Assembly (NCBI GenBank): GCA_023150805.1
Contig: JAKLKF010000012.1
Span: 17,564 to 81,563, forward strand
DNA: 64,000 bases
Reading direction: 5' to 3'
Source of the DNA: Myxococcota bacterium
Lineage (GTDB): Bacteria; Myxococcota_A; UBA796; UBA2385
The notes beneath the pieces are model-generated. The model was not told the origin of the DNA, made no database searches, and saw only the letters and a program-made list of their open reading frames with translations. Numbering within the stretch: position 1 is the stretch's first letter; every line of letters begins with the position of its first letter. The translations under genes and the position numbers were made by a program. This document shows positions 28,267-44,768 of the stretch, piece by piece.

Positions 28267-29385
28267 TCAGCGCACGGGGCTGAAGCCCCGGTCTCCCCAG
28301 ATGTCCAGGTAGCCCTTCCAGACCCCCTCGCAGCCGTCCCGCAGCCGGCAGTCGGCGCAGGCCGCGGGCTGGCCCTTGAGGTCCCGCTTCTTGCGGTCCT
28401 GCCAGTTGAAGCGCGCGCGCTGCTCGGCCGCGTCGAACTGCACGACGGTGCTGGGGTACTGCTTGCCCCGCCCCTCGCCCGGCGGCACCTTGCCCGGCGG
28501 AATGACGTCCCCTCCGCCGCTGCGGATCGAGCAGGCCGTCGAGAGGTCCCGGTACTCGCCCATGTAGCGGCGCAGCAGGGCCTCGCTGCCGCGGAGCGCG
28601 GGCGGCAGGACGCACATCGGGAAGCCGCCGAAGGTGAAGGTGCGGCGGAAGTGGTGCTCGTTGAGCAGGATGGCCTTCACCAGCAGCGGGACGACCTGCT
28701 CGTAGCGGGGGGTGAGCTCGGCGTCGCCCTCGGCGTAGCCCTCAGCCCGGATGAAGTTCACCCGCAGGTCGGACAGGCCCAGGTCCCGGTAGAAGAACTG
28801 CATCATCTTCGGCAGGGCCGCGGCGTTCCAGCCGTTGAGCACGATGTTGACGGACAGGCCGTCGGGCAGGTGCCCCTGGGCTTGCTGCTTGTGCCGCAGG
28901 TAGCGCAGGGCCTCGACCTTCTTGTCGAAGTTGCCGGGCACCCGGGTCAGGCGGTCCTCGAGCGCGGCCGTGTGCCCGTGCATCGAGACCGTGACGCGCG
29001 TCAGGCCCGCGTCCAGCAGGCGGTCGGTGAAGTGCGGAAGCCGCAGCTTGGTCGCGTTGGTCGCGATGGCGACGCGGGTGAAGCCGAGCTTGCGGGCGTA
29101 GGCGACGCTGTCGACGATCCGCGGGTAGGTGGTGGGCTCGCCGCCGAGGAAGCCCACGCTGCGGTAGCCGTCGGCGTAGAAGCGCTCGAGCTCGGCCTGC
29201 ATCTGCTCGAAGCGCATGTAGCTGCGGTCTTCCTGCTTGGGCAGGCCGTCGATGCAGAAGACGCAGCGGTTGTTGCACGCCTTGCCGATGTTGATCTCGA
29301 CGTTGCGGCGCGCGTCGCGATCCGGGTTCCAGGGCTGGTTGCCCGGGGTCGGCTGCGGCAGGCTGGGGGCGGCGGTGGGCTGCAC
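28267..29385 (-). CDS. Radical SAM protein, HxsC-like
   Basis: CNNRCVFC, FLGGEPT, ATNA, SMHGH, GFPMC, C-terminal CADCRLRDGCEG. Confidence 0.88.
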   Translation of the reverse strand: MQPTAAPSLPQPTPGNQPWNPDRDARRNVEINIGKACNNRCVFCIDGLPKQEDRSYMRFEQMQAELERFYADGYRSVGFLGGEPTTYPRIVDSVAYARKLGFTRVAIATNATKLRLPHFTDRLLDAGLTRVTVSMHGHTAALEDRLTRVPGNFDKKVEALRYLRHKQQAQGHLPDGLSVNIVLNGWNAAALPKMMQFFYRDLGLSDLRVNFIRAEGYAEGDAELTPRYEQVVPLLVKAILLNEHHFRRTFTFGGFPMCVLPPALRGSEALLRRYMGEYRDLSTACSIRSGGGDVIPPGKVPPGEGRGKQYPSTVVQFDAAEQRARFNWQDRKKRDLKGQPAACADCRLRDGCEGVWKGYLDIWGDRGFSPVR

Positions 29386-29421: not shown

Positions 29422-30447
29422 TCAGCCCGCGCCGCCCGAGAAGGGGCGCAGCTCGTCGGTCTGGAAGGACAGGGCGTAGAGGTCGTTGACGCCCATGCAG
29501 ACCTCGCGGCGCGCGCAGCCCTCGCAGGCGGGCACGTGGGTGCGCTTGCGGTCGGGCGCCCAGGAGTAGATCCCCGCGAAGGCCACCTTGCCGGGGACGG
29601 ACTGCCACTCGACGGTGACGCGGGGATCCCAGTGCAGGTCGTTGCTGCAGCTCCAGTGGGGGCCGAGCAGGCACATCGGCACCCCGAAGAAGCGCAGCAC
29701 CGCGTCGGGCGCGCGCGCGGGGAGCAGGGGCAGGATGCGGGCGAGGTCGGCCAGCCGGGGCGCGAGCTCGGTGAAGCGGTCGAAGCCGCCGCCCTCCGCC
29801 GTCAGGTTGCTCACGACGATGAGGCGCGCCCCCAGCTCGCCCAGCAACGCCACCGTGTCGGGGAGCTGCTCGATGTTGCGCGCGGTGACGACCGTGTTGG
29901 CGAACAGGCCGAAGCCGGGCTGGCGGCGCGCGAGGCGCATGGCCGCCGTCACGGTCTCGAAGCTGCCGACGCGGCCGGCGAGCGCGTCGTGGACCGCGGC
30001 CGAGGGGCCGTGCACGCTGAACAGGGCCTCGTCGAGCCACGGCAGCGCCCGCTCCGCGAAGTCGGGACGCGAGAGCATGGTCCCGATGGTCCCGACGCTG
30101 GTCCGCATGCCCAGGCGGCGCGCGAGCTGCAGGGCCTCGACGAAGCGAGGATGGATCGTCGGCTCGCCCCCCGTGAAGTGCACGGAGCGCACGCCGCGGC
30201 TGGCGTGCAGGCGGAGCACCGTCGCCACGCGCCCCCAGGTCACCGGGAAGGCGCGGTAGGACGCCATCCGGTGCTCCTCGCTGCAGAAGGCGCAGCGCTC
30301 GGGGCAGTGGTAGGTCAGGTGCAGCTCCAGCCGCTGCATCACCTGCCCCTTGGGACCGATCCAAGGGCGCGCGTCGGCCGACAAGCCCAGCTCGCTCTGC
30401 TGGGTCGGGCTGGGCAGGTGACCGGGGGACGCCGCGGGCGAGGTCAT
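29422..30447 (-). CDS. Radical SAM protein, HxsC-like
   Basis: CPERCAFC, FTGGEPT, SVHG, GVPMC, C-terminal CEGCARREVCMG. Confidence 0.88.
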   Translation of the reverse strand: MTSPAASPGHLPSPTQQSELGLSADARPWIGPKGQVMQRLELHLTYHCPERCAFCSEEHRMASYRAFPVTWGRVATVLRLHASRGVRSVHFTGGEPTIHPRFVEALQLARRLGMRTSVGTIGTMLSRPDFAERALPWLDEALFSVHGPSAAVHDALAGRVGSFETVTAAMRLARRQPGFGLFANTVVTARNIEQLPDTVALLGELGARLIVVSNLTAEGGGFDRFTELAPRLADLARILPLLPARAPDAVLRFFGVPMCLLGPHWSCSNDLHWDPRVTVEWQSVPGKVAFAGIYSWAPDRKRTHVPACEGCARREVCMGVNDLYALSFQTDELRPFSGGAG

Positions 30448-30451
30448 CGCG

Positions 30452-31453
30452 TCAGCCCCCGCCGGTGGCGGCGCGCGGGCCCCGGCGCTTGGAGGCCAGC
30501 CACGCCGGGTAGAGGCCGCGCACCAGCCGGGTCAAGGCGGCGTCGACCGCCTGGGTCGACGCCCAGACCCCCTCCGGCAGCGCCTGGCGCAGCAGCTCCT
30601 CGACCCGGGCGGCGCCCGCCGCGAGCGCATCGGGCGTGGGGGGTTCGTCCAGGCTGCCCAGCCGGGTCTGTCCACGCAGCCCGTCGAGCTGGCCCGACAG
30701 GCCGACGTTGCTGGGGTGGACGCTGCGGTCGGCGTCCACGACCAGGCCGGTGTTGAAGAAGGGGGTGGGCGCCCAGGTGAACAGGTTGCGCAGGTAGAGG
30801 GGGCGGCCGGCGGCCCACTCCGCCCGGATCCGCTGCCCGATGGCCGAGAAGCCCGCCTCCAGCGCGTCGAGCTGGGCGGGCCTCCACGGCAGGTAGTAGC
30901 CGGGCAGCAGGTTGAAGCGGCGGAAGCCCAGCTCCAGCAGGTGGGCGAAGTTCTCGGCCGCCCGGGGAGCGGTCGAGGGCGCGATGGTCTGCGTCACGAC
31001 CAGGCGAGGGGCGCGGAGCAGCGCGGGCAGCAGGTCCCGCACGTGCTGGTAGCTGTCGGCCACCCCGGGCAGGGCGCGGCGCAGCCCGCGGTGGTCCTCG
31101 GGCCGCCCGTCCAGGCTCAGGGTCAAGATGACCTTGGGCCGGGCCGCGAGGAGGTCGAGCCAGCCGGCGTCGAGCCCCAGCCCGTTGGTGCTCAGGTAGA
31201 CGCGCCGGATCTCGGGGCGGGCGCTGGCCTCCTCGATGGCAGCCCGCACCACCTGGGGCACCAGCAGGGGCTCGCCGCCGAAGAGCTTCACGTCGCCCGG
31301 CCGGCGCGCGTCCACGTAGCGGGTGGCGAACAGCGAGACGGCCGCGCGCGCGTCCTGCTCCGTCAGCGAGGGCCAGCCGTCCTTGGCGGTCGGGCAGTAG
31401 GCGCAGCGCAGGTTGCAGGCCCGCGTCACCGTCAGGATCATCGACGGCGGCAT
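30452..31453 (-). CDS. Radical SAM protein lacking auxiliary-cluster cysteines
   Basis: CNLRCAYC, FGGEPLL, STNG, LSLDG; alternative GTG start at 31534 beside the precursor stop. Confidence 0.87.
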   Translation of the reverse strand: MPPSMILTVTRACNLRCAYCPTAKDGWPSLTEQDARAAVSLFATRYVDARRPGDVKLFGGEPLLVPQVVRAAIEEASARPEIRRVYLSTNGLGLDAGWLDLLAARPKVILTLSLDGRPEDHRGLRRALPGVADSYQHVRDLLPALLRAPRLVVTQTIAPSTAPRAAENFAHLLELGFRRFNLLPGYYLPWRPAQLDALEAGFSAIGQRIRAEWAAGRPLYLRNLFTWAPTPFFNTGLVVDADRSVHPSNVGLSGQLDGLRGQTRLGSLDEPPTPDALAAGAARVEELLRQALPEGVWASTQAVDAALTRLVRGLYPAWLASKRRGPRAATGGG

Positions 31454-31527: not shown

Positions 31528-31860
31528 CTACCACTGCCCGTGGGAGCCGTGGCTGCCGTGGGAGCCGTGGCTGCCGTGGGAGCCGTGGCTGCCGTGCGAG
31601 CCGTGGCTGCCGTGCGAGCCGTGGCTGCCGTGCGAGCCGTGGCTGCCGTGCGAGCCGTGGCTGCCGTGCGAGCAGTGGGCCGCGAGCTGGATGCCGCCGC
31701 TGGCGGGGTCCGCGAGCAGGGCGTCCGCCTTGAGCAGCAGCTCGCTGCTGGCGTCGAGCTCCCCGGCGCTGGCCGCTTCGGTCCGCTGCAGGAAGTCGGC
31801 GGGCTTCTTGTCGATGGCGGGGAGCTTGGCGCTGCCCTTGTCCAGGTCCTTGGTGCTCAT
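31528..31860 (-). CDS. hxsA: His-Xaa-Ser repeat precursor peptide (HxsA-like)
   Basis: 61-aa leader-like region then HCS-(HGS)14-HGQW; strong AGGAGG site; directly downstream of hxsB. Confidence 0.9.
   Translation of the reverse strand: MSTKDLDKGSAKLPAIDKKPADFLQRTEAASAGELDASSELLLKADALLADPASGGIQLAAHCSHGSHGSHGSHGSHGSHGSHGSHGSHGSHGSHGSHGSHGSHGSHGQW
31543..31668 (-). repeat. 18-bp tandem repeat x7 encoding (HGSHGS)7
   Basis: Unit CACGGCAGCCACGGCTC(G/C): four TCG units then three TCC units. Confidence 0.95.
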
Positions 31861-31865
31861 GCCGA

Positions 31866-31871
31866 CCTCCT
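31866..31871 (-). promoter_or_regulatory. Shine-Dalgarno site of the precursor gene, overlapping the hxsB stop
   Basis: Minus strand TAGGAGGTCGGC-ATG. Confidence 0.75.
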
Positions 31872-33384
31872 AATCGTTGCCCGTGGCCGGCGGAGGAGTC
31901 TCCCGCGGCCGCGTGATCGTCCAGCGCTGGAAGATGCGCGCCAGGCTGCCGTCGTCGTCGGCCGCCAGGCGCTCGAAGAGCATGCGGGCGATGCCCATGT
32001 GCTGCATGCACTTGGGGGTGTTGGGCCGCTGCCCGAACAGGTCGCCGGCCTGCATGTAGTTGTGCAGCGGGCGGACCCCGCAGTAGGGCGCGTTCCAGCA
32101 CTCGTGGCACTGCGGCAGCCCGTCGAGCAGGCTGGCCACGGCCATGGCGCGCACGGTCGGGTGGCGGATCGCGTCCTGGATGCTGGTCTCGCCCACGCGC
32201 CCCAGGGCGAACATGGGGTTGCCCATGGCGTCGATCATCCGCCCCTCGTCGCTGGGGAAGATGGTGCCGTCGTAGTTGTAGGCGATCTGCCCCGTGCCCG
32301 CGCCGATCGGCGAGCGGATGTCGACGAAGTTGGGGTCGTCCGGGGTCAGCATCTTCTGCAGGAACAGGGCCGCCGTGCCCTCGATGATCTGCACACCGTC
32401 GCGGTTGAGCTGGATGATGTGGTCGAGCGCCTCCTCGTAGAAGCGCAGGAACTCGGGCATGTCCACGCCCACCACCTTCCAGGTCTTCGTGATGAAGCCG
32501 AAGGGGTTGAGCGGCCGCAGGTAGATGTTGCGGATGCCCAGCGACACGTACAGGTCGATCACCTCCCGCCAGTGGTCCATCGTCTTGCGGGTGGTGGTCA
32601 TCAGGGCGTCGACGTGCCACAGCTCGGGATCGCGTCCCAGCTCCACGTACCGGCGGTTGAAGTAGGAGATCCACTTCATCACGGTGTCGTAGGCGCCCGC
32701 CCCCTTGCCGGTCCAGGGGCGGTTCCAGTCGTGCACGTGCTGCGGACCGTCCAGGCTGGTGCACAGCAGCACGTCGTTGGCCAGCAGCCACTCGGCCTTC
32801 TCCTCGTCCATGCAGGTCATGTTGGTGACGAGGCTGAAGTCCAGCGTCTTGCCTTCCTGGCGGTTCTTCTCCCGGCCGTACTCGACGACGAACTTGATGA
32901 CGTCGAAGTTGACGGTCGGCTCGCCGCCCTGGAACTCGAAGGCGATGTAGGGGCTGGGCGACTGCATCGCCGTGTCGACCACCTTCTTGGCGGTCTCCAG
33001 GCTCATGTCGGTGTCGACCCGGTCCATGTCGGTGCGGGAGGCGTGGCAGTACTTGCAGGACTGGTTGCAGCGCAGCGTCGCGATCACGACGTGCAGGTGC
33101 GGCCCCATGCCCAGCCAGCGCTTCTTGCGCCGGAAGCGCTCGGCCACCGCTTCGGCGTCCATGCCGTCCCGCACGAAGCCCTTGGCCAGCAGGGCGGCGT
33201 GCTCGGCGTGGTCCGGGCCCAGTTCCCCCGCCAGCAGCGCCTGGAAGTCCGGCTCGGAGAGCAGGTGCCACTCGCCCGTGTCGTGGGTGAGGAGCACCTT
33301 GCCCGCCATCCGGCCGAAGCGGAAGGGCCCCAGCGCGTCGGCGTCCAGGCGCGGGTGCTGGAGTCGGAGGCTGCCGGTGCGCAT
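31870..33384 (-). CDS. hxsB: His-Xaa-Ser system radical SAM maturase HxsB
   Basis: N-terminal extension (PFRFGR..LLTHDTGEW), TLRCNQSCKYCHAS, EFQGGEP, TSLDGP, LRPLNPFGF, AYNYDG..SDEGRM, CHECWNAPYCG. Confidence 0.9.
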   Translation of the reverse strand: MRTGSLRLQHPRLDADALGPFRFGRMAGKVLLTHDTGEWHLLSEPDFQALLAGELGPDHAEHAALLAKGFVRDGMDAEAVAERFRRKKRWLGMGPHLHVVIATLRCNQSCKYCHASRTDMDRVDTDMSLETAKKVVDTAMQSPSPYIAFEFQGGEPTVNFDVIKFVVEYGREKNRQEGKTLDFSLVTNMTCMDEEKAEWLLANDVLLCTSLDGPQHVHDWNRPWTGKGAGAYDTVMKWISYFNRRYVELGRDPELWHVDALMTTTRKTMDHWREVIDLYVSLGIRNIYLRPLNPFGFITKTWKVVGVDMPEFLRFYEEALDHIIQLNRDGVQIIEGTAALFLQKMLTPDDPNFVDIRSPIGAGTGQIAYNYDGTIFPSDEGRMIDAMGNPMFALGRVGETSIQDAIRHPTVRAMAVASLLDGLPQCHECWNAPYCGVRPLHNYMQAGDLFGQRPNTPKCMQHMGIARMLFERLAADDDGSLARIFQRWTITRPRETPPPATGND

Positions 33385-33647
33385 CAGGTCGTTCCCCCGC
33401 CGTCGCCCCGCAGGGTCGCCTCGGCCTGGTTCCGCCGGACCACGGTCTCCGCGAGCACGTGGTTGCAGAAGTGGTCGACCAGGACGTCGGCCACGTCCGG
33501 GTCGACCTGCTCGAAGCGCACCGTCAGCTCGTGCTCCGAGGGCAGCACGGTCACGCGCGCCACGCCGGCGTACTGCGAGGCGACCGCCTCGACCGCCCCG
33601 TCGTCGTAGAGCGAGCGATGCAGAGAGACCTCAGGAGCCACCGCCAC
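33384..33647 (-). CDS. Small HxsD-like protein
   Basis: SLYDDGAVEAVASQY..DHFCNHVL parallels the HxsD pattern; TGATG overlap with hxsB. Confidence 0.65.
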   Translation of the reverse strand: MAVAPEVSLHRSLYDDGAVEAVASQYAGVARVTVLPSEHELTVRFEQVDPDVADVLVDHFCNHVLAETVVRRNQAEATLRGDGGGTT

Positions 33648-34113
33648 CCTCCCGCTCGGCGGGCGCGTCCCAGGGCACGCTGATCTCCAGGTCGTCCTGG
33701 GCCAGCTCCTCCTGGTCGAGCTCAGCCAGGAGCTGGTCGATGCTGGACCGGGTCGAGGTGCTGAAGAAGGCGCGGGCCATGTAGTACTCGCGGATCTTCC
33801 GGGTCGAGTCCCCGATGCGCACCCGCAGGACCTGGTTGAGCAGCTCGTTGGCCAGCTCGCCGGCCAGGGCCTCCAGCGCGGCGGGATCGGTCGGGCCCTT
33901 GGGCTTCAGCCGCACCTCGACCTGCTTGTCCGCCGACCGGTGCAGGTACACCCAGCAGCGGTCCACGAACAGGTAGGCGGCGCCGTAGATGGCGTCGAGG
34001 GGGTACAGCTCCTCGTCGACGCGCAGGGCCACGCGCCGGCCGTCCTCCAGCCAGGTCAGCTCGTCCACCAGCGCCTCGGCCGGGGTCGAGGTCTCCACGC
34101 TCACGTCGCTCAC
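33631..34113 (-). CDS. hxsD: His-Xaa-Ser system protein HxsD
   Basis: LYPLDAIYGAAYLFVDRC, GELANELLNQVLRVRI..TRKIRE resembling the HxsD LL(N/D)xxLR motif. Confidence 0.8.
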   Translation of the reverse strand: MSDVSVETSTPAEALVDELTWLEDGRRVALRVDEELYPLDAIYGAAYLFVDRCWVYLHRSADKQVEVRLKPKGPTDPAALEALAGELANELLNQVLRVRIGDSTRKIREYYMARAFFSTSTRSSIDQLLAELDQEELAQDDLEISVPWDAPAEREGGGGS

Positions 34114-34658
34114 GTCAGGCTCTCCGGGCCATAGGCCAGCAGGCGCTCGTCGTGCGGCTCCATCCGGGCCAGCTCGCCGAGGTCCCCCTGCGAGGACAGC
34201 TCGTTGGACCGGATGTGGGCCGCGAGCCCCATGACCACGCGCCCCAGGGACTCGTCGGTGGGCTTGTCGCCCTGCCCGCCGTCCATGAGCACCAGGTCCA
34301 GCAGCTCGGTGTGCGCCACGCCCCGGGGGCTACCCCGCCGGTGGCAGAGGTGCACGCGGCCGACCGCGCCGTCGCGGTGCTGCAGCGTGAGCACGCTGGC
34401 CCCGCGCTCCACCGCGCCGAGGTGGGCGACGAACCAGCCCGCTCCGACGTGCGAGCCGCGGGTCAGCGGCGCCAGCAGCCACCACGGCCCTGCGCCGGCC
34501 TGGGGCGAGGGAGGGGCCGACGAGCGCCCGGCGTCGGACGCTTCCGCCCCGCCGGGCGCGGGAGGCAGGCTCGAACCCACGGCGGCGGTGCCGACCACCA
34601 CCGTGGCCACCGCCGTTCCCAGGCCGATCTGCTGCAGGACCTTGCGACGAGAGTCCAT
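34110..34658 (-). CDS. Hypothetical protein with twin-arginine-like signal peptide
   Basis: MDSRRKVLQQIGLGTAVATVVVG; overlaps both neighbours (TGATG and GTGA). Confidence 0.7.
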   Translation of the reverse strand: MDSRRKVLQQIGLGTAVATVVVGTAAVGSSLPPAPGGAEASDAGRSSAPPSPQAGAGPWWLLAPLTRGSHVGAGWFVAHLGAVERGASVLTLQHRDGAVGRVHLCHRRGSPRGVAHTELLDLVLMDGGQGDKPTDESLGRVVMGLAAHIRSNELSSQGDLGELARMEPHDERLLAYGPESLT

Positions 34659-36979
34659 CACCACACCCCGTTCGTGATCTCGAGCTCGTAGTGCTGGCAG
34701 CTCATGGAGACCGAGCCCTTGCGCACCACCTTGATGTAGAAGTCCCGCGAGTCGTCCGCGCAGGTGTTGTAGAGCGCCGACCCGCCGCTGCAGGACCGCG
34801 TGTCCGAGGGGATCGTGTGCACTCCCTCGCCCTTGTCCTGGTTGAACCAGGAGTACTCGTTCGTCGCCGTCGCGCACTCGACCGCGGTGCTGTCGTAGGA
34901 GTCGTCGTAGACCGTGAACTCGTAGGTCGAGGCGCCCTCGACCAGCTCGACGGCGAACTTGAAGTAGTCGATGCCCGCCGAGACGTCGTCGCTGACGTCG
35001 TCGCTGGCCGTGACCCGGTACCAGTCGGCCTCGTCCCCCTCGAGCATGTTGCCCTCGATGGAGATGGTGTCGACGCCGTCGTCGGAGATGCTGCTCCACT
35101 CGCTGATGGCGTCACGCCCCTCGTCGCCGTAGCCGGCGCTGTCCTCGAAGGTGTCGTAGGGGTCGCAGACCTCGGTGCTGACGGTGTTGCTGTCGGCCGA
35201 GGTGTTGCCCGCGGAGTCGGTGCAGGTCGCGTAGCACTCGTTGACCTCGCCCCGGCTGAGCGTCGTCGACCAGGAGAAGGTGCCTCCCGAGGTGCAGGTG
35301 TCGGTGTCCGACCAGCTCGACAGCGAGTCGCTGCAGTAGAAGGTCAGGTCGCAGAGCGCCTCGCAGGTGCCGGTCAGGGTGACCGACTCCTCGTTGCGGT
35401 AGGCGAAGGGCGTGTTGATCTCCGGCGCGTCCGGCGCCGTGCCGTCGTTGATCGTGACGTAGTCGCTGGCCGAGGTCCCGTCCTCCTCGCCGTCGTTGGG
35501 GGTGACCACGCACTCCCAGCCCTGGCCGTGGGCGGTGTAGCTGCTGTCCACGGTGTTGGTCGTGACCGTCGAGAGGGCGCCGTCGCGGTACCACTCGTAG
35601 CGATACTCGATCCGGTCGCCGTCGGCGTCGGTGGAGGCCGTCAGGACCTCGCAGTAGAGGTCGTCCTCGGGCTCGGGGCGCTCGGGCGAGATGCCCACGA
35701 CGGGCGCGGTCGGCTGGGCGTTCTCGATCTGGGTGGTCGGGCTGGTGACCGGGGTGCCGTCGACGTAGCTGTCGTAGGGCGTGATCTGGACCTGGACCAG
35801 GTCGCCCTTGGTCGTCTTGGCCGCCGGGTAGGTGCCGGTCGTCTCGCCGGTGTCCACCGTGCCGTTGACGGTCCACTGGTAGCGGTAGCGCTCGCTGTCG
35901 CCGTCCTGGTCGAACCAGCCCGACGGCGAGGCGACCAGGTCCACGGTGGTGTCCGGCGCCGAGGGGGTGATCGCCACCGAGTCGACCGAGGGCCCCGAGT
36001 TCTCCACGGTGATCGAGTCGTAGCCCGGGTCGCCGTAGCCATAGCCGTCGTTGGGGTAGGCGTAGACCTCCCAGTACTGCCCGCGCACGGTGACGCCGCG
36101 GCTGACGGTGTCGTTGCTGCCCGACTGGTAGAGGGCGCCCCCCAGGTACCAGTCGTAGCGGTAGGTCACGGCGTCACCCTCGGGATCCGCCGCGTCCGCG
36201 GTGACCACGGCCACCAGGCTCTCGCCCGACGCGGCCGGCTCGGGCGAGATGACGACCGAGGGCGCCCCCGGGCGCGCGTTGACCGACAGGGTCGCGGTGT
36301 CCTGGTCCGTGCGTCCCGCGCTGTCCGTGACCTCCACCGTGATCAGGTGGTCGCCGTTGCTCAGCGTGCCGGCGGCGGTCCAGGCCCCCGAGGAGGAGGG
36401 CGCGGCCGACAGGCCGAGGTCGCCGTCGACCGACGAGCGGACCGAGACCACCAGGTCCTCGGAGGAGTCCTCGGCGTCGGCCACCTGGGCCTCGAAGACG
36501 ATGAGATCCCCCGGCTCGAAGAAGTCCCCGGAGGCCGGCGTCACCAGATCGATCGAGGGAGGCGTGTTCTCCTCGATGACGACCGACACGGTGGCGCTGG
36601 CCGTGTCCAGCCGGGGGTCGGTCACCGTGACGGTCACGGTCTGCTCGCCGACCTCGTCGAAGGTCCAGTCGCAGGTGGCGGTACCGTCGGAGTTCACCGG
36701 CGCCGTGGTGCACATCGTGGAGGTGCCCGTGACCCAGGCGTGGTCCAGGTCGGAGAGCGCCGTCTCGTCGAAGACCTGGGCGAGCGCCTCGAAGCGCACC
36801 GACTGGCCCTGGAAGAAGCGCGCACCCTCGGAGGGCGAGGTGATGGTCACGGCCGGCGGCTCGTGCCGGATGTTGACCGTCTTGTCGCCGCTGCAGCCCG
36901 CCATGAGCAGGGCCAGCAGCGCCGCGCCTGCGACAGGCGCAGGTACAGCGTGGCGGTGCGAGGGGACACTGCAGGGCAT
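34658..36979 (-). CDS. Ig-like repeat surface lipoprotein with Cys-containing PPC-like C-terminal domain
   Basis: Lipobox LMAGC; repeated P..V.I.P / D.DGD...Y.Y.W / V.P.DG units; ends CQHYELEITNGVW. Confidence 0.82.
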   Translation of the reverse strand: MPCSVPSHRHAVPAPVAGAALLALLMAGCSGDKTVNIRHEPPAVTITSPSEGARFFQGQSVRFEALAQVFDETALSDLDHAWVTGTSTMCTTAPVNSDGTATCDWTFDEVGEQTVTVTVTDPRLDTASATVSVVIEENTPPSIDLVTPASGDFFEPGDLIVFEAQVADAEDSSEDLVVSVRSSVDGDLGLSAAPSSSGAWTAAGTLSNGDHLITVEVTDSAGRTDQDTATLSVNARPGAPSVVISPEPAASGESLVAVVTADAADPEGDAVTYRYDWYLGGALYQSGSNDTVSRGVTVRGQYWEVYAYPNDGYGYGDPGYDSITVENSGPSVDSVAITPSAPDTTVDLVASPSGWFDQDGDSERYRYQWTVNGTVDTGETTGTYPAAKTTKGDLVQVQITPYDSYVDGTPVTSPTTQIENAQPTAPVVGISPERPEPEDDLYCEVLTASTDADGDRIEYRYEWYRDGALSTVTTNTVDSSYTAHGQGWECVVTPNDGEEDGTSASDYVTINDGTAPDAPEINTPFAYRNEESVTLTGTCEALCDLTFYCSDSLSSWSDTDTCTSGGTFSWSTTLSRGEVNECYATCTDSAGNTSADSNTVSTEVCDPYDTFEDSAGYGDEGRDAISEWSSISDDGVDTISIEGNMLEGDEADWYRVTASDDVSDDVSAGIDYFKFAVELVEGASTYEFTVYDDSYDSTAVECATATNEYSWFNQDKGEGVHTIPSDTRSCSGGSALYNTCADDSRDFYIKVVRKGSVSMSCQHYELEITNGVW

Positions 36980-38121: not shown

Positions 38122-38277
38122 GCCAGCTCCGGTCCGGGCGGGGTCGGTCGTTCCACCGATGCGGTCAGGGCGCGCCGGCGGGCAGGGTGAACCTACACGG
38201 GCGAAGTGAACTTGGCAGCGGGAGGTGCAAGGCGCCGTCGCGGGCGGTATCGTCTGCGCTCTCTCGGGAGCCCCGCC

Positions 38278-41200
38278 ATGCCCCTGGTCGCCCCTTTCCT
38301 GGCCATCTTCGCGCTGGCGTGCAGCAGCGACGGCAAGATCACCGCCTACACCGAGCCGCCGGAGGTGACGATCACCACCCCCGCCGACGGTGCCGAGGTG
38401 CTCCAGGCCGTCGCCGTGTCGATGCGCGGCCTGGTGGTCGACAAGGAGTTCTCCGACAGCCTGTCCAGCCTGACGGCGCAGTGGAGCGTCGACGGCGAGG
38501 CCATCTGCGAGGGGTCCTACGTCGACGACGGCGGCAACGTCGCCTGCGTCCACACCTTCGCGGTGGCCGGCACGGTCGAGCTGGCGCTGACCGTCACCAA
38601 CCCCGACGGCGCCTCGGCCACCGCGACCTCCGAGGTGGTGGTCCTGCCCAACGCCGCCCCGACCGTGGCCATCGAGCTGCCCGACCCGACCGGGCGGTAC
38701 TACGCCGACCAGCTTCTCTCCTTCCTGGCGTGGGCCAACGACGGCGAGGACGCCGCGACCGACCTGTTCGCCACCTGGACGAGCGACCTCGAGGGCACGC
38801 TGGACATCGACGACACGCCCGACGCCGACGGCATGCTGGCCGGAGACACGGTGCTGGGCGAGGGCGAGCACCTGATCACCCTGCAGGTCGAGGACACCAC
38901 CGGCCTGATCGGCACCGACTCGATCATCGTGGACATCGGGCCGCCGAACAGCCCCCCCTCCTGCGCCATCACCGCCCCCGGCAACAACGACAGCTTCGAG
39001 ATCGGCAGCACCATCCTCTTCGAGGGGACGGCGACCGACGCGGACATCGACGCCGACGAGCTGACCGTCACCTGGAGCAGCTCCCTGGACGGCGTGCTCT
39101 CGACCACCGCGCCGACCTCGGCGGGCACCATGACCTTCGGGGCCAGCGGCCTGAGCGCGGCCACCCACACCATCACCCTGCAGGTCGAGGACGAGCTGGG
39201 CGGGTCCTGCAGCGACGCCATCCTCATCTCGGTGGGCGACGGTCCCGACGTGGTCATCGACAACCCGACCTCCGGGGACGTCGAGAACGAGGGCGAGTCG
39301 GTCGCCTTCCAGGCGACGGTCACCGATCCCGACGACGCGGCGACCTCGCTGGACATCACCTGGGAGAGCAGCCTGGACGGCGTGCTGAGCACCGCTGGCG
39401 CCGACAGCTCGGGCATCACGGCCTTCTCTTTCGCGGGCCTGTCGGTGGGCGACCACATCATCTCGGTCACCGCGGTCGACCCGGAGGGCTACTACGCCGT
39501 CGAGAGCGTGCGGCTCACCATCAACGGCCTGCCCGACGAGCCGGTGGTCGAGATCGACCCCGGCGACCCGCTCTCCGACCAGGACCTGACGGCGATCATC
39601 ACCGCCGACAGCACCGACCCCGAGGGTGACGCGGTCACCTACACCTATGCCTGGCGCCGGAACGGCGCGTCCACCAGCTACATCACCGACACGGTGCCGG
39701 CCTCGGCGACCACGCGTGGCGAGACCTGGTCGGTCGTCGTGACCCCCAACGATCCCTACGGCAGCGGGGCCACCGGCACCGACAGCGTGGTCGTCGCCAA
39801 CGCGCCGCCGTCGGTGGCCTCCGCCGCCATCAGCCCCACGAGCCCGGTCGAGGGGGACACGCTGACCTGTGTCGCGGGCGCGACCTCGGACGCCGACGGG
39901 GACACGGTGAGCCTGAGCTACCGCTGGACCGTCGACGGCGTGGCGGCGTCTTCGACCTCCAGCACGCTGTCGTCGACCGCCTTCGAGAAGGGCGACAGCG
40001 TCACCTGCAGCATCACGCCCAACGATGGCTACGCCGACGGCACGACCGTCACCTCGGCGGCCGTGACCGTGGGCAACAGCGCCCCCACCATCACCGCGGC
40101 CACGCTCGCGCCGACCACGGCCTACGAGGCGTCGACCCTGACCTGCACCCCCAGCGGCGGCACGGACGCCGACGGGGACACGGTCAGCTACCGCTACGAC
40201 TGGGTCGTGGGCAGCTCGACCCTGGGGCTGGACAGCGCGAGCCTGACGGGATCCTGGTTCGACAAGGGCGACGCGGTCACCTGCGTGGTGACCCCCACCG
40301 ACGGGACCGACGACGGCAGCCCGGTGTCCTCCAACGTCGTCACGGTCCGGAACACGGCCCCCCAGCTCACCAGCGTGACCCTCAGCCCGACCTCGCCCAC
40401 CGAGAGCAGCACCATGTCCTGCTCGCCGGGCGCGACCTCGGACGACGACGGTGACAGCGTCAGCCTGACCTACGGCTGGGTGGTGGACGGGGTCGACCTG
40501 GGCCTCAGCGGCAGCAGCCTGAGCAGCGCCTGGTTCGGCAGCGGCGACACGATCCAGTGCTACGGCACCCCCGACGACGGCACGACCGCGGGCGCCGCCG
40601 TGTACTCGGCGGTCGTGACGGTGGCCAACACGGCCGCGACGGTCGCCAGCGCCAGCATCACCCCGACCAGCCCGGTCGAGGGGGACACGCTGACCTGCGT
40701 GGCGGGCACCAGCAGCGATGTCGACGGCGACGCCGTCACGCTGTCCTACCGCTGGGCGATCGACGGCTCGACCATCGCCGCCACTGGCAGCACCCTCTCT
40801 TCCACCTGGTTCGGCCGGGGCGACTCGGTCACCTGCACCATCACGCCCAACGACGGGACGACCGACGGGACCAGCGTCACCTCGGCGGCCGTCGTGGTCG
40901 GCAACACGGCCCCCAGCCTGGCCTCGGTCAACCTCTCGCCCACTACGGCCTACGAAGGCTCGACGATGACCTGCACGCCGGGCAGCGCCACGGACGTGGA
41001 CGGCGACACGGTCTCGTACCGCTACGACTGGCTGGTCTCCGGCACCTCGCTGGGCCTGGACAGCAGCAGCCTGTCGGGCTCCTGGTTCGACAAGGCCGAC
41101 ACGGTCACCTGCGTGGTGACGCCGACCGACGGCACCGCCTCCGGCAGCGCGGTCTCGTCGAACACCGTGACCATCCGGAACACCGCGCCGGTCCTGGCCA

Positions 41201-42798
41201 GCCTGTCGCTCACGCCCACCACCGCGACCGAGAGCAGCACCTTCGCCTGCACGCCGGGCGGGACCTCGGACGCCGACGGCGACAGCGTCAGCCTGAACTA
41301 CGGCTGGCTGGTCGACGGCGCGGACGCCGGGGTGACTGCGGCCAGCCTGGCGGGCGCGTACTTCGGAAAGGGCGACACCGTCCAGTGCTACGCGACGCCC
41401 TACGACGGCGCGACCAGCGGGACCACGCTGTACTCGGCGACGGTGACCGTGTCCAACACCGCGCCCTCGGCCACCGCCGTCGAGATCGCGCCCGTCGACC
41501 CCTACACGGACGACACCCTGACGGCGACCGCCAGCGGCTGGACCGACCCCGACGGCGACGCCGAGGGCTACGACTGGCAGTGGTACGTCGACGGCACCGC
41601 GGTCAGCTCGGGCGGCACCAGCCGCACCCTGTCGGGCACCAAGTTCTCCAAGCACCAGCTCGTCCACGTGGTGGCCACCCCCGACGACGGCACCGCGACG
41701 GGCAGCCCCGTCACCAGCGGCACGGTGGAGATCCTGAACACCGCGCCGACCGCGCCCACGGTGCAGGTCACGCCGACCGACGCCGAGCCCGAGGACGACC
41801 TGGTCTGCGGCATCGTCACCCCCAGCGCCGACGCTGACGGCGACACGGTCAACTACCGCTACGAGTGGTGGGTGGACGGGGTCAAGTCGACCGTCACCAC
41901 CGCCACCCTGGACGAGGCCTACACCGAGGACGGCGACACCTGGACCTGCCGGGTCACGCCCTACGACGACGACGAGGACGGCACCTCGGCCAGCGACGCC
42001 CAGGAGGTGGTGGACCGCACGGCGCCCGACCAGCCGGTGATCTCGGCCATCGACGAGTACCGGAACACGACCTCGGTGTCGTTGTCCGGCACGGCCGAGG
42101 CCGGCGCGACGGTCACGGTGACCATGGACTGCACCGACGGCACGCTGAGCGAGGTGGACGTCACCGCCTCGTCCGGCGGCACCTGGTCGACCTCGTTCTC
42201 GATGGACCGCGGCGAGGAGTGTGACTTCGTCGCCTACGCCACCGACGCCCACGGCAACGTCAGCGGCCTGAGCAACACGGTCACCACCGAGTCCTGCAAC
42301 CCCTACGACACGCGCGAGGACAGCCTGGGCTACGGCGACACCTGTGTCGAGTCCATCGACGAGTGGTCGGTCCTCACCGACGCCGGCACGACCGTCGTCG
42401 AGATCCAGGGCAACATCATCGACACCACCGATGTCGACTGGTACGTCATCGACACCTCGCAGACGGTGCTGACCGCCGGCACCAACGTCTACAACTTCGA
42501 GGTGACGCTGACGGAGGGCGCCTCGGACTACACCTTCGAGGTGTACCGCGGCAGCTGCGCGACCGCCGACCTGGAGTGTCCGTCGACGCCGGACCTGACG
42601 GACTACGCCTACTTCGCCCAGGACGTGGGCGGCGCGGAGCACTCGATCCCCTCGGACAGCCGCTACTGCTACACGGGCTCGCCCTTCTACAACAACTGCG
42701 ACGACCTCAGCGACGTGTACTACATCAAGGTCGAGCGGATCAGCACCGCCCTGTCCTGCCAGCACTACGAGCTGTCGATCAGCAACGGCGCCTGGTAG
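38278..42798 (+). CDS. Giant Ig-like repeat surface lipoprotein (~1500 aa), paralog of 34658-36979
   Basis: Lipobox ALAC; many ~90-aa S/T/D-rich repeats with DADGD and paired Cys; ends CQHYELSISNGAW. Confidence 0.85.
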   Translation: MPLVAPFLAIFALACSSDGKITAYTEPPEVTITTPADGAEVLQAVAVSMRGLVVDKEFSDSLSSLTAQWSVDGEAICEGSYVDDGGNVACVHTFAVAGTVELALTVTNPDGASATATSEVVVLPNAAPTVAIELPDPTGRYYADQLLSFLAWANDGEDAATDLFATWTSDLEGTLDIDDTPDADGMLAGDTVLGEGEHLITLQVEDTTGLIGTDSIIVDIGPPNSPPSCAITAPGNNDSFEIGSTILFEGTATDADIDADELTVTWSSSLDGVLSTTAPTSAGTMTFGASGLSAATHTITLQVEDELGGSCSDAILISVGDGPDVVIDNPTSGDVENEGESVAFQATVTDPDDAATSLDITWESSLDGVLSTAGADSSGITAFSFAGLSVGDHIISVTAVDPEGYYAVESVRLTINGLPDEPVVEIDPGDPLSDQDLTAIITADSTDPEGDAVTYTYAWRRNGASTSYITDTVPASATTRGETWSVVVTPNDPYGSGATGTDSVVVANAPPSVASAAISPTSPVEGDTLTCVAGATSDADGDTVSLSYRWTVDGVAASSTSSTLSSTAFEKGDSVTCSITPNDGYADGTTVTSAAVTVGNSAPTITAATLAPTTAYEASTLTCTPSGGTDADGDTVSYRYDWVVGSSTLGLDSASLTGSWFDKGDAVTCVVTPTDGTDDGSPVSSNVVTVRNTAPQLTSVTLSPTSPTESSTMSCSPGATSDDDGDSVSLTYGWVVDGVDLGLSGSSLSSAWFGSGDTIQCYGTPDDGTTAGAAVYSAVVTVANTAATVASASITPTSPVEGDTLTCVAGTSSDVDGDAVTLSYRWAIDGSTIAATGSTLSSTWFGRGDSVTCTITPNDGTTDGTSVTSAAVVVGNTAPSLASVNLSPTTAYEGSTMTCTPGSATDVDGDTVSYRYDWLVSGTSLGLDSSSLSGSWFDKADTVTCVVTPTDGTASGSAVSSNTVTIRNTAPVLASLSLTPTTATESSTFACTPGGTSDADGDSVSLNYGWLVDGADAGVTAASLAGAYFGKGDTVQCYATPYDGATSGTTLYSATVTVSNTAPSATAVEIAPVDPYTDDTLTATASGWTDPDGDAEGYDWQWYVDGTAVSSGGTSRTLSGTKFSKHQLVHVVATPDDGTATGSPVTSGTVEILNTAPTAPTVQVTPTDAEPEDDLVCGIVTPSADADGDTVNYRYEWWVDGVKSTVTTATLDEAYTEDGDTWTCRVTPYDDDEDGTSASDAQEVVDRTAPDQPVISAIDEYRNTTSVSLSGTAEAGATVTVTMDCTDGTLSEVDVTASSGGTWSTSFSMDRGEECDFVAYATDAHGNVSGLSNTVTTESCNPYDTREDSLGYGDTCVESIDEWSVLTDAGTTVVEIQGNIIDTTDVDWYVIDTSQTVLTAGTNVYNFEVTLTEGASDYTFEVYRGSCATADLECPSTPDLTDYAYFAQDVGGAEHSIPSDSRYCYTGSPFYNNCDDLSDVYYIKVERISTALSCQHYELSISNGAW

Positions 42799-44707: not shown

Positions 44708-44768
44708 GGGCGCAGCCTACCCGCGCGGGCGTGCCAGGGGGAGGGCCGCGTGCCTTCGAGAGGAGGCG

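What the first reader, a model, noticed from the sequence alone, without database searches (positions are those of the whole stretch)
31528..31860. Precursor with near-perfect core HCS-(HGS)14-HGQW
Seen: 61-aa acidic leader-like region ending IQLAA, then 16 His at strict 3-residue spacing, a single Cys in the first triad and a terminal Trp. Known: triceptide radical SAMs crosslink aromatic residue 1 to residue 3 of a three-residue motif, including His. Inference: the core could become a serially crosslinked poly-cyclophane rod or a high-capacity metal-binding polymer; the unique Cys and Trp ends are candidate sites for the extra enzymes.
Basis: partly seen in the sequence, partly recalled or inferred. 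Interest (0 to 1): 0.85.

Follow-up and report, generated by a model that had tools for sequence, protein, structure and literature searches.

The report
Known-family His-Gly-Ser repeat peptide precursor
This small gene is real and encodes a peptide with 16 evenly spaced histidines, but it belongs to an already catalogued family (HxsA4) of substrates for radical-SAM enzymes that is common in myxobacteria and whose chemistry and role are still untested.

Summary
ORF 31528..31860 (-) encodes 110 aa: a 61-aa leader ending IQLAA, then HCS-(HGS)14-HGQW, with one Cys and one Trp.

It is not a new kind of precursor. It scores above the curated cut-off of NCBIfam NF038313, "His-Xaa-Ser repeat protein HxsA4". 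It lies between HxsB, HxsD and an HxsD-like gene upstream and three further radical-SAM genes downstream.

The same cassette, with a conserved Tat-signal protein upstream of HxsD, recurs in 28 Myxococcota MAG loci. HxsA4 passes its cut-off in 125 of 401 sampled genomes of the phylum.

Relatives all end in HGQW but carry 7 to 59 His triads. The first-triad Cys is Ala in 7 of 23.

The closest studied system is the E. coli HXS antiphage system (PMC13128918), which differs in effector, gene order and HxsC.

The triceptide reading is only partly supported. His and Ser are the constrained positions, but no enzyme here belongs to a known cyclophane-synthase family, and the only measured HXS modification is +8 Da, not -2 Da.

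This scan found the same operon type before on other DNA. Verdict: new member of a known kind, moderate interest.

The parts
31528..31860 (-). HxsA4-type precursor, 110 aa: 61-aa leader plus HCS-(HGS)14-HGQW
   Evidence: Translation and counts. NF038313 scores 82.8 bits against a cut-off of 55. GC3 is 0.99. AGGAGG lies upstream of the ATG. Orthologues at the same position in related loci.
31538..31678 (.). 18-bp tandem DNA repeat that encodes the HGS units (two triads per unit)
   Evidence: TRF finds period 18, 7.8 copies, 98% matches. Three 9-mers make up 14 of the 16 triads. No listed contig piece bridges the array in the four runs laid.
31870..33384 (-). HxsB, a radical SAM/SPASM maturase, 504 aa
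   Evidence: TIGR03978 scores 503.1 bits against a cut-off of 370, over model positions 3-466. CNQSCKYC at 106-113, plus Cys 426, 429, 435 and 459.
33384..33647 (-). HxsD-like small protein, 87 aa; its stop overlaps the HxsB ATG
   Evidence: NF038315 scores 54.3 bits against a cut-off of 41. tblastn finds homologues in 25 of 28 related loci.
33631..34113 (-). HxsD, 160 aa as called from a GTG (the true start may be further in)
   Evidence: TIGR03976 scores 55.5 bits against a cut-off of 50. Found in 27 of 28 related loci. AF2 model has pLDDT 76.2. The weak best fold matches are Rpb11/L-type RNA polymerase subunits, not a winged-helix peptide-recognition domain.
34110..34658 (-). Conserved Tat-signal protein of unknown fold, 182 aa; its ATG overlaps the stop of the lipoprotein gene
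   Evidence: The twin-arginine motif is kept in 26 of 26 homologues. No Pfam hit and only a below-cut-off Tat-signal hit in NCBIfam. AF2 core residues 60-183 mostly have pLDDT above 90. Foldseek against the PDB gives 0 matches at E <= 0.001.
34658..36979 (-). Lipoprotein with Ig-like domains, 773 aa; upstream neighbour, conserved in part of the clade
   Evidence: Big_7, Glucodextran_B and related Pfam hits. LMAGC lipobox seen in the sequence. Full-length-type tblastn matches directly upstream of the cassette in 13 of 28 loci.
30452..31453 (-). Radical SAM gene 1, 333 aa, with only the three CX3CX2C cysteines
   Evidence: PF04055 hit. Best NCBIfam hit is PapB at 89 bits against a cut-off of 340. 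Cysteines only at 13, 17 and 20. 501 homologues at E <= 1e-10; the names shown are generic (radical SAM protein, MoaA/NifB/PqqE/SkfB family, AslB, pyruvate formate-lyase activating enzyme).
29422..30447 (-). Radical SAM gene 2, 341 aa, a distant HxsC/HxsC4 relative with C-terminal Cys cluster motifs
   Evidence: HxsC4 scores 89.1 bits (cut-off 500) and HxsC scores 49.9 bits (cut-off 267.9). Cysteines at 48, 52, 55 plus 259, 267, 308, 311, 317. 31% identical to gene 3.
28267..29385 (-). Radical SAM gene 3, 372 aa, a distant HxsC/HxsC4 relative
   Evidence: HxsC4 scores 133.2 bits (cut-off 500) and HxsC scores 62.2 bits (cut-off 267.9). Cysteines at 37, 41, 44 plus 258, 285, 343, 346, 352.

Best explanation
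The ORF is a genuine HxsA4-family His-Xaa-Ser repeat precursor. It is the substrate gene of a Myxococcota-type HXS cassette: (Ig-like lipoprotein), Tat-signal protein, HxsD, HxsD-like, HxsB, HxsA4, then three more radical-SAM genes, tightly spaced on one strand.

Shown here:
- family membership of HxsA4, HxsB, HxsD and HxsD-like by curated HMM cut-offs;
- conservation of the whole cassette in relatives;
- constraint on His and Ser;
- an invariant HGQW end;
- a variable repeat number.

Inferred:
- The conserved leader (LP at 13-14, E28, AD at 45-46) docks the peptide on the HxsB/HxsD machinery.
- HxsB (SPASM type), the two HxsC-like enzymes and the cluster-poor third enzyme then modify the His and Ser side chains of each triad in turn.
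- The leader is removed by a protease encoded elsewhere.
- The product acts at the cell envelope together with the co-transcribed Tat-exported protein and lipoprotein.

By analogy with E. coli HXS, a multivalent His-rich array that blocks phage DNA entry is the leading single guess for the role (about 0.3). A metal-related or other envelope role is about as likely. The confidence given below refers to the identity and the radical-SAM substrate role, not to the physiological function.
For: Family membership:
- NF038313 HxsA4 scores 82.8 bits (cut-off 55). TIGR03978 HxsB scores 503.1 (cut-off 370). TIGR03976 HxsD scores 55.5 (cut-off 50).
- NF038315 HxsD-like scores 54.3 (cut-off 41).
- All four radical-SAM genes carry CX3CX2C.

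Operon structure:
- Gaps between genes are 9, 74, 4 and 36 nt, and start/stop codons overlap among the lipoprotein, Tat protein, HxsD, HxsD-like and HxsB genes.

Synteny:
- 28 loci (L013-L040, HxsB 55-85% identical) were examined.
- 22 have enough downstream sequence. Of these, 20 carry all three extra radical-SAM genes and 2 (L026, L034) carry two.
- HxsD is in 27 of 28 loci and HxsD-like in 25 of 28. A Tat-protein homologue with the RR motif is in 26.

Precursors in relatives:
- 23 of 23 complete ones are leader + H(C/A)S-(HGS)n-HGQW.
- Invariant leader columns are P14, E28, A45 and D46.

Spread:
- The wider family gives 194 hits at E <= 0.001, three of them named HxsA4 by NCBI.
- 125 of 401 sampled genomes of the phylum pass the cut-off, against 0 of 14 control genomes.

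E. coli HXS:
- Radical-SAM-dependent maturation, a periplasmic site of action and the need for every HxS repeat are reported in PMC13128918 (sections 9-11 read).

Weak hint of expression:
- Contigs from three metatranscriptome runs of three studies lie on the cassette with 0-3 differences.
- They include pieces at 31717-32081 (X11) and 31706-32094 (X18), which cross the HxsB/precursor junction.
Against: - No HxsC-type enzyme here reaches a curated cut-off. HxsC4 scores 133 and 89 bits against 500; HxsC scores 62 and 50 against 267.9.
- The canonical HxsA model scores only 16.2 bits against 121.65.
- The peptide has no peptidoglycan-binding domain and no signal peptide, so the E. coli mechanism cannot simply be transferred.
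- No protease or transporter is conserved next to the cassette, so processing and export are unexplained.
- The cassette is near-universal in some families of the phylum at the loose threshold (f19 29/29, f27 18/19). That looks more like vertical inheritance than the patchy pattern usual for defence genes.
- PADLOC gives only generic viperin-type radical-SAM hits.
- RNA-library contigs can contain DNA, so expression is not shown.
- No modification has been measured for any HxsA4 peptide in any paper my searches found.
Confidence: 0.8

Rival explanations
1. This is the first reader's chemistry: each H-G-S triad is turned into a three-residue His-to-Ser C-C cyclophane (triceptide type, -2 Da each), giving a serially cross-linked rod. 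It is a sub-hypothesis about the chemistry and is compatible with the family assignment above.
For: The motif has the omega1-X2-X3 form with His at position 1. His triceptides exist: HAA, HNR and HTK motifs with a His-C2 to C-beta link (PMC11499958 passages). Positions 1 and 3 are the constrained ones. HxsB is a SPASM-type enzyme, the class that makes most such links. In E. coli the His and Ser residues of the modified motif are required.
Against: HxsB and radical-SAM gene 1 score 35-47 bits on the YhhB, FxsB and GrrM/OscB models, against cut-offs of 310-445. The measured E. coli HXS modification is +8.0 Da, described as +C/-4H type, and sits on one motif only. Four radical-SAM enzymes are more than one cross-link type needs.
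Confidence: 0.2
2. The peptide is an unmodified His-rich metal-binding or metal-storage peptide (like His-rich tails of nickel or zinc chaperones), and the neighbouring radical-SAM genes are unrelated to it.
For: Sixteen regularly spaced imidazoles would bind Ni, Zn or Cu. The repeat number varies freely (7-59), as expected for a capacity-type function.
Against: The gene sits among the same HxsB and radical-SAM genes in every related locus whose contig reaches it; in L031 it lies between genes 2 and 3 rather than directly after HxsB. A conserved non-repeat leader and invariant Ser and HGQW are not needed for simple metal binding. The family was defined by this co-occurrence (NCBIfam names).
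Confidence: 0.05
3. The (Gly-Ser-His)n stretch is a short bacterial collagen-like triple helix.
For: Pfam Collagen PF01391 scores 34.1 bits against a cut-off of 27.2. There are weak hits to the Scl and Lcl adhesin models.
Against: There are only about 15 triplets, with no Pro, no trimerisation domain, no signal peptide and no anchor. The adhesin models score 24-29 bits against cut-offs of 325-500. In the wider family the 'Gly' position is Gly in only 709 of 1388 triads, while His and Ser are kept. The hit therefore reflects periodicity, not homology.
Confidence: 0.02

Closest known systems
HxsA4-type His-Xaa-Ser repeat proteins as catalogued by NCBIfam (NF038313 HxsA4, NF038315 HxsD-like, NF038332 HxsC4), seen mostly in Omnitrophota, Elusimicrobiota and other uncultured groups
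   Same: The precursor passes the HxsA4 cut-off. It shares the N-terminal LPx(I/L)xK..F(L/M) leader motif, long runs of H-x-S triads and an aromatic C-terminal end such as HGQW. An HxsD-like gene is present.
   Different: The leader here has no hydrophobic membrane-like stretch, whereas 22 of 120 listed family members have one by my crude test. No gene reaches the HxsC4 cut-off; three divergent radical-SAM genes are present instead. A Tat-signal protein is part of the conserved cassette.
Canonical HXS antiphage system HxsD-HxsB-HxsC-HxsA of E. coli and other Pseudomonadota (Li et al., Nat Commun 2026, PMC13128918; predicted earlier by Haft and Basu 2011, which I did not read and know only as cited in PMC9062424)
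   Same: HxsB and HxsD are members by curated cut-offs. The substrate has tandem His-Xaa-Ser units. More than one radical-SAM enzyme is present. The co-transcribed Tat protein and lipoprotein hint at the envelope, which matches the periplasmic site of action in E. coli.
   Different: [quoted passage not shown] Here the product is a 110-aa peptide with 16 triads and no other domain. The gene order is D-D'-B-A-rSAM x3, not D-B-C-A, which that paper reports for 99.6% of systems. The paper also reports 99.7% of systems in Pseudomonadota. The HxsA and HxsC models are not met.
Triceptides (three-residue cyclophane RiPPs; maturases YhhB, HaaB, HtkB, FxsB, GrrM/OscB)
   Same: Repeated three-residue motif starting with an aromatic residue (His). 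A radical SAM/SPASM enzyme lies next to a leader-bearing precursor.
   Different: No enzyme here belongs to a known triceptide-synthase family. The only mass datum for an HXS system is +8 Da, not -2 Da. Ser at position 3 of a His motif does not appear among the characterised motifs (HAA, HNR, HTK) in the passages I read.

Membership tests
HxsA4 (NCBIfam NF038313) | Whole-protein HMM score at or above the curated cut-off of 55 bits | tested here: met
   82.8 bits, E 2.4e-23, model positions 1-93 of 93. 81.4 bits in the six-frame genome search.
HxsA4 (NCBIfam NF038313) | Tandem His-Xaa-Ser triads after a non-repeat N-terminal region | tested here: met
   15 H-x-S and 16 His at period 3 after a 61-aa leader.
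His-Xaa-Ser (HXS) system in the broad sense | Adjacent HxsB radical SAM/SPASM maturase (TIGR03978, cut-off 370) | tested here: met
   503.1 bits; the gene ends 9 nt before the precursor ATG.
His-Xaa-Ser (HXS) system in the broad sense | HxsD small protein (TIGR03976, cut-off 50) | tested here: met
   55.5 bits. In addition, HxsD-like NF038315 scores 54.3 against a cut-off of 41.
His-Xaa-Ser (HXS) system in the broad sense | Paired second radical-SAM enzyme HxsC (TIGR03977, cut-off 267.9) or HxsC4 (NF038332, cut-off 500) | tested here: not met
   Best scores are HxsC 62.2 and 49.9 bits, HxsC4 133.2 and 89.1 bits. These genes are distant relatives only.
Canonical HXS antiphage system (E. coli type) | HxsA effector (TIGR03979, cut-off 121.65) with a peptidoglycan-binding domain | tested here: not met
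   16.2 bits. No Pfam domain apart from the periodicity-driven Collagen hit.
Canonical HXS antiphage system (E. coli type) | Gene order HxsD-HxsB-HxsC-HxsA | tested here: not met
   The order here is Tat protein, HxsD, HxsD-like, HxsB, HxsA4, then three radical-SAM genes. The paper gives D-B-C-A for 99.6% of systems.
Canonical HXS antiphage system (E. coli type) | Protection against phage by blocking DNA entry | not testable with these tools
   Needs phage challenge of a host that carries or lacks the cassette.
Triceptides (3-residue cyclophane RiPPs) | Omega1-X2-X3 motif with an aromatic residue at position 1 | tested here: met
   H-G-S with His at position 1. Definition taken from PMC11499958.
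Triceptides (3-residue cyclophane RiPPs) | Maturase belonging to a known cyclophane-synthase family (YhhB NF041707, FxsB TIGR04269, GrrM/OscB TIGR04261) | tested here: not met
   HxsB scores YhhB 46.9 (cut-off 445) and GrrM/OscB 45.1 (cut-off 310). Radical-SAM gene 1 scores YhhB 37.5 and FxsB 35.0 (cut-off 370).
Triceptides (3-residue cyclophane RiPPs) | Aromatic-to-C-beta cross-link, -2 Da per motif | not testable with these tools
   Needs mass spectrometry and NMR. The only HXS datum is +8.0 Da in E. coli HxsA.
Bacterial collagen-like proteins (PF01391) | Gly conserved at every third position as a structural requirement | tested here: not met
   The Pfam score passes (34.1 against 27.2). But in 112 family members that position is Gly in only 709 of 1388 triads.

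The most novel reading that the evidence does not exclude
The Myxococcota cassette makes a length-variable (7 to 59 units) polymer of modified His-Gly-Ser triads. Each triad carries a His/Ser-centred ring built by up to four different radical-SAM enzymes, a chemistry not yet described. The product is delivered to the envelope together with a Tat-exported protein of a fold with no solved relative. There it forms a multivalent barrier or a metal- or DNA-binding array. On this reading it would be a vertically inherited, near-core envelope component in several myxobacterial families, not a sporadic defence island.
Probability: 0.2. Interest if true: 0.7.

Novelty: new member of a known kind. Interest (0 to 1): 0.35.

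Why it matters
The gene itself would be named automatically by NCBI's pipeline, so the discovery value of this single ORF is low. The system behind it is still of real interest. No paper my searches found reports the structure of any HxsA4 product. The one studied HXS system left its +8 Da chemistry unsolved.

The myxobacterial form offers a very regular substrate, (HGS)n, with four dedicated radical-SAM enzymes, and it passes the family cut-off in about a third of sampled genomes of the phylum (125 of 401). That makes it a convenient model for solving HXS chemistry. It could also show whether HXS-type systems act in defence outside Pseudomonadota.

Tried and rejected
1. Complex prediction of the Tat protein (residues 58-183, alignment A1) with the precursor (alignment A2): score 0.00 in both runs, no verdict. 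This says nothing either way about binding.

2. Fold of the Tat protein: the model has a confident core, but Foldseek against the PDB gave 0 matches at E <= 0.001. The ESM Atlas gave only Tat-signal look-alikes at 0.77-0.81, below the 0.9 lead level. No function could be derived.

3. PADLOC scan of 8 cassette proteins: only generic viperin-type radical-SAM hits, and none for the precursor, HxsD or the Tat protein. The library dates from 2023, before the HXS paper.

4. The promoter and terminator scan was uninformative: 0 promoter-like sites and 2 terminator-like sites, against 1.8 expected.

5. Reads: none of the listed contig pieces of X6, X11, X18 or X19 spans 31567-31644, so neither the repeat number nor transcription through the core could be checked. 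Raised word depth over the repeat bin cannot be interpreted.

6. Search for a conserved protease or exporter next to the cassette: none found by clustering ORFs of the window region plus 28 loci.

7. Second HxsB locus in the same genome (contig C166): no HxS-repeat ORF of 40 aa or more in the 18 kb fetched.

8. An opposite-strand or other-frame gene at 31528..31860 was rejected. Only the minus-strand frame passed the GC3 and GC2 filter.

9. One search failed because one locus reference contained a stop codon. I dropped that row and repeated the alignment.

Full report
OBSERVATION

The minus-strand ORF 31528..31860 translates to 110 residues. A script count gives a 61-residue leader ending IQLAA, followed by HCS, fourteen HGS, then HGQ and W. 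That is 16 His at period 3, one Cys and one Trp.

The window is 69-80% GC, and the ORF's third-position GC is 0.99, as expected for a real gene in such DNA. AGGAGG lies just upstream of the ATG, and the gene begins 9 nt after the stop of the upstream gene.

At the DNA level the core is an 18-bp tandem array (31538..31678, 7.8 copies, 98% matches). Three 9-mers make up 14 of the 16 triads.

One reservation applies. Among the listed contig pieces of one independent DNA run (X6), one stops at 31567 and the next long one starts at 31644, and no listed piece of the three RNA runs crosses the array either (32 pieces listed, 272 not shown). The exact repeat number therefore rests on this assembly alone.

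WHAT IT IS

Curated HMMs place the peptide in NCBIfam NF038313, "His-Xaa-Ser repeat protein HxsA4" (82.8 bits, cut-off 55), matched over the whole model including the leader. The surrounding genes are:
- Upstream, HxsB: TIGR03978, 503.1 bits, cut-off 370.
- Further upstream, HxsD: TIGR03976, 55.5 bits, cut-off 50.
- Between HxsD and HxsB, an 87-aa HxsD-like gene: NF038315, 54.3 bits, cut-off 41.
- Downstream, three more radical-SAM genes.

The three downstream genes differ from one another:
- Gene 1 (333 aa) has only the three CX3CX2C cysteines.
- Genes 2 and 3 (341 and 372 aa) are 31% identical to each other and carry five further C-terminal cysteines each.
- Genes 2 and 3 are distant HxsC/HxsC4 relatives that stay far below both cut-offs.

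Upstream of HxsD, with overlapping stop and start codons, lie two more genes:
- A 182-aa protein with a twin-arginine signal.
- A 773-aa lipoprotein with Ig-like domains.

RELATIVES

A scan of species-representative genomes with HxsB returned 35 loci. Of these, 28 (L013-L040) are 55-85% identical and come from Myxococcota MAGs, some with other phylum labels in their titles. tblastn with the window's proteins gave these counts (unless stated):
- 22 loci have enough downstream sequence. 20 carry all three extra radical-SAM genes and 2 (L026, L034) carry two.
- HxsD is found in 27 of 28 loci and HxsD-like in 25 of 28.
- A Tat-protein homologue that keeps the RR motif is found in 26.
- The lipoprotein is directly upstream in 13 of 28.
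- Clustering all ORFs of the window region plus these loci found no other conserved neighbour, and so no protease or exporter.

All 23 complete precursors in these loci have the form leader + H(C/A)S-(HGS)n-HGQW. The numbers of His triads are 7, 8, 8, 8, 12, 13, 13, 13, 13, 14, 15, 15, 18, 18, 18, 19, 19, 19, 20, 20, 43 and 59, plus one with an interrupted run.
- The first triad is HCS in 16 and HAS in 7.
- Of the 7 HAS loci, 5 still have all three extra enzymes.
- Near-identical leaders go with different repeat numbers, for example L022, L023, L039 and L020 with 12, 13, 14 and 15. This points to replication slippage.
- Invariant leader columns are P14, E28, A45 and D46.
- In L031 the precursor sits between radical-SAM genes 2 and 3. 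L019 has two precursors.

THE WIDER FAMILY

A protein search gave 194 hits at E <= 0.001 among 5270 candidates. Three of the 120 listed are named HxsA4 by NCBI (Omnitrophota and Elusimicrobiales MAGs).
- 112 of the 120 listed have runs of five or more His triads.
- In their 1388 triads, position 3 is Ser 1187 times. Position 2 is Gly 709 times, Ser 274 times and Ala 237 times.
- 48 of 120 end in Trp.

In the window's own phylum the HxsA4 model passes its cut-off in 125 of 401 sampled genomes (214 of 401 at E <= 0.001), against 0 of 14 control genomes.

The own genome has one HxsA4 over the cut-off and two HxsB over the cut-off.

This scan had already described the same Myxococcota operon, and expanded forms in other phyla, on other DNA.

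HOW IT MOST LIKELY WORKS

Shown here: a leader-bearing repeat peptide is embedded in a conserved, tightly spaced set of HxsB, two HxsD-type proteins and three further radical-SAM enzymes. His and Ser are the constrained residues, the HGQW end is invariant, and the repeat number is free to vary.

Known from the one studied relative, E. coli HXS (PMC13128918; outline and sections 9-11 read):
- A +8.0 Da change is localised to an SHRSS motif whose His and flanking Ser residues are each essential.
- HxsC binds HxsD.
- The mature protein acts in the periplasm.
- Every one of its five HxS repeats is required.

Inferred for this locus:
- The leader docks the peptide on the HxsB/HxsD machinery.
- The enzymes modify His and Ser of successive triads.
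- An unlinked protease removes the leader.
- The product acts at the envelope with the Tat protein and the lipoprotein.

The HxsD model (pLDDT 76.2) resembles Rpb11/L-type assembly subunits only weakly (best E 9.4e-4, TM 0.36-0.47). It does not look like a winged-helix peptide-recognition domain, so I cannot say which protein reads the leader.

For the physiological role I put about 0.3 on an HXS-like block to phage DNA entry. Several points weigh against a simple transfer of that role:
- The peptide lacks a peptidoglycan-binding domain and a signal peptide.
- The gene order differs.
- The cassette looks vertically inherited in several families (f19 29/29, f27 18/19 at the loose threshold).

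His triceptides are real: HaaB, YhhB and HtkB make a His-C2 to C-beta link with a -2 Da shift (passages of PMC11499958). A residue-1 to residue-3 link also fits the conservation pattern.

However, none of the enzymes here belongs to a known cyclophane-synthase family (35-47 bits against cut-offs of 310-445). The only HXS mass datum is +8 Da. The Cys is dispensable across the clade. I rate the triceptide-type chemistry at about 0.2.

OTHER RIVALS

- The Pfam Collagen hit (34.1 bits) reflects Gly-X-Y periodicity. The "Gly" position is the least conserved of the three across the family.
- A plain unmodified metal-binding peptide does not explain the conserved leader, the invariant Ser, or the constant association with radical-SAM genes.

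EXPRESSION

Contigs from three metatranscriptome runs of three studies lie on cassette genes with 0-3 differences. They include pieces at 31717-32081 (X11) and 31706-32094 (X18), which cross the HxsB/precursor junction. RNA libraries can hold DNA, and contigs cannot show strand or level, so this is a weak hint only.

LITERATURE

Three full-text searches found only three kinds of paper mentioning Hxs proteins or HxS repeats:
- the Li et al. paper and its preprint;
- a genome report whose listing I did not open;
- PMC9062424, whose passages mention HxsB/HxsC as annotated but uncharacterised and cite Haft and Basu 2011.

None deals with HxsA4 or (HGS)n peptides. Those of PMC13128918 may list non-canonical layouts.

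VERDICT

This is a real, well-preserved gene and a new member of a known, catalogued kind. It sits in a Myxococcota-specific cassette variant that remains chemically and functionally uncharacterised. Interest is 0.35.

Noticed in passing
window 42854..44716 (-): A 621-aa radical-SAM protein about 6 kb upstream of the cassette is also a distant HxsC/HxsC4 relative (HxsC 81.3 bits, HxsC4 90.7 bits, both below cut-off). Weak radical-SAM matches also lie upstream of the lipoprotein gene in several related loci (for example L014 3388-4044, L019 1530-2135).
   Followed up: partly
window 38206..42798 (+): A 1530-aa protein with Ig-like domains, divergently oriented, clusters with the 773-aa lipoprotein of the cassette. 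Paralogous copies also flank the cassette in L014, L015 and L036.
   Followed up: partly
own genome contig C166, L012 6813..9441: A second HxsB paralogue (453.8 bits, over the cut-off) lies beside an HxsC4/HxsC-like radical-SAM gene (135 and 91.6 bits), a GNAT-like gene and a large PKS-like ORF. No HxS-repeat ORF of 40 aa or more was found in the 18 kb fetched.
   Followed up: partly
L019 9577..9939 and 10714..11283; L031 4878..5591: One relative carries two precursor genes (20 and 43 His triads) separated by a second copy of the Tat-protein gene. Another has a 59-triad precursor placed between radical-SAM genes 2 and 3.
   Followed up: partly
L015 10924..13620 and L036 10888..13583: About 2.7 kb of extra DNA sits between radical-SAM genes 1 and 2 in two close relatives. 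I did not examine its content.
   Followed up: no
window 34110..34658 (-): The conserved Tat-signal protein has a confidently modelled core (residues 60-183) with no PDB fold match at E <= 0.001. Its invariant residues are P65, G69, G87, D122, M126, G131, E137, E154, H170 and R173.
   Followed up: yes
window 33631..34113 (-): The HxsD model (beta-beta-alpha-beta-beta plus a 40-residue helix) weakly resembles Rpb11/L-type RNA polymerase assembly subunits, which work as heterodimers. HxsD and HxsD-like might pair in the same way. This was not tested.
   Followed up: partly
protein P0004 (71 aa, on an 816-base contig): Its leader is 95% identical to the window's, but it diverges just before the repeat and has no His triads. 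It looks like a frame or assembly break at the repeat in a close relative.
   Followed up: no
L038 9800..12805: In this most distant cassette relative (HxsB 55% identical), radical-SAM genes 2 and 3 each match in two pieces in different frames. These may be frameshifts or assembly errors.
   Followed up: no
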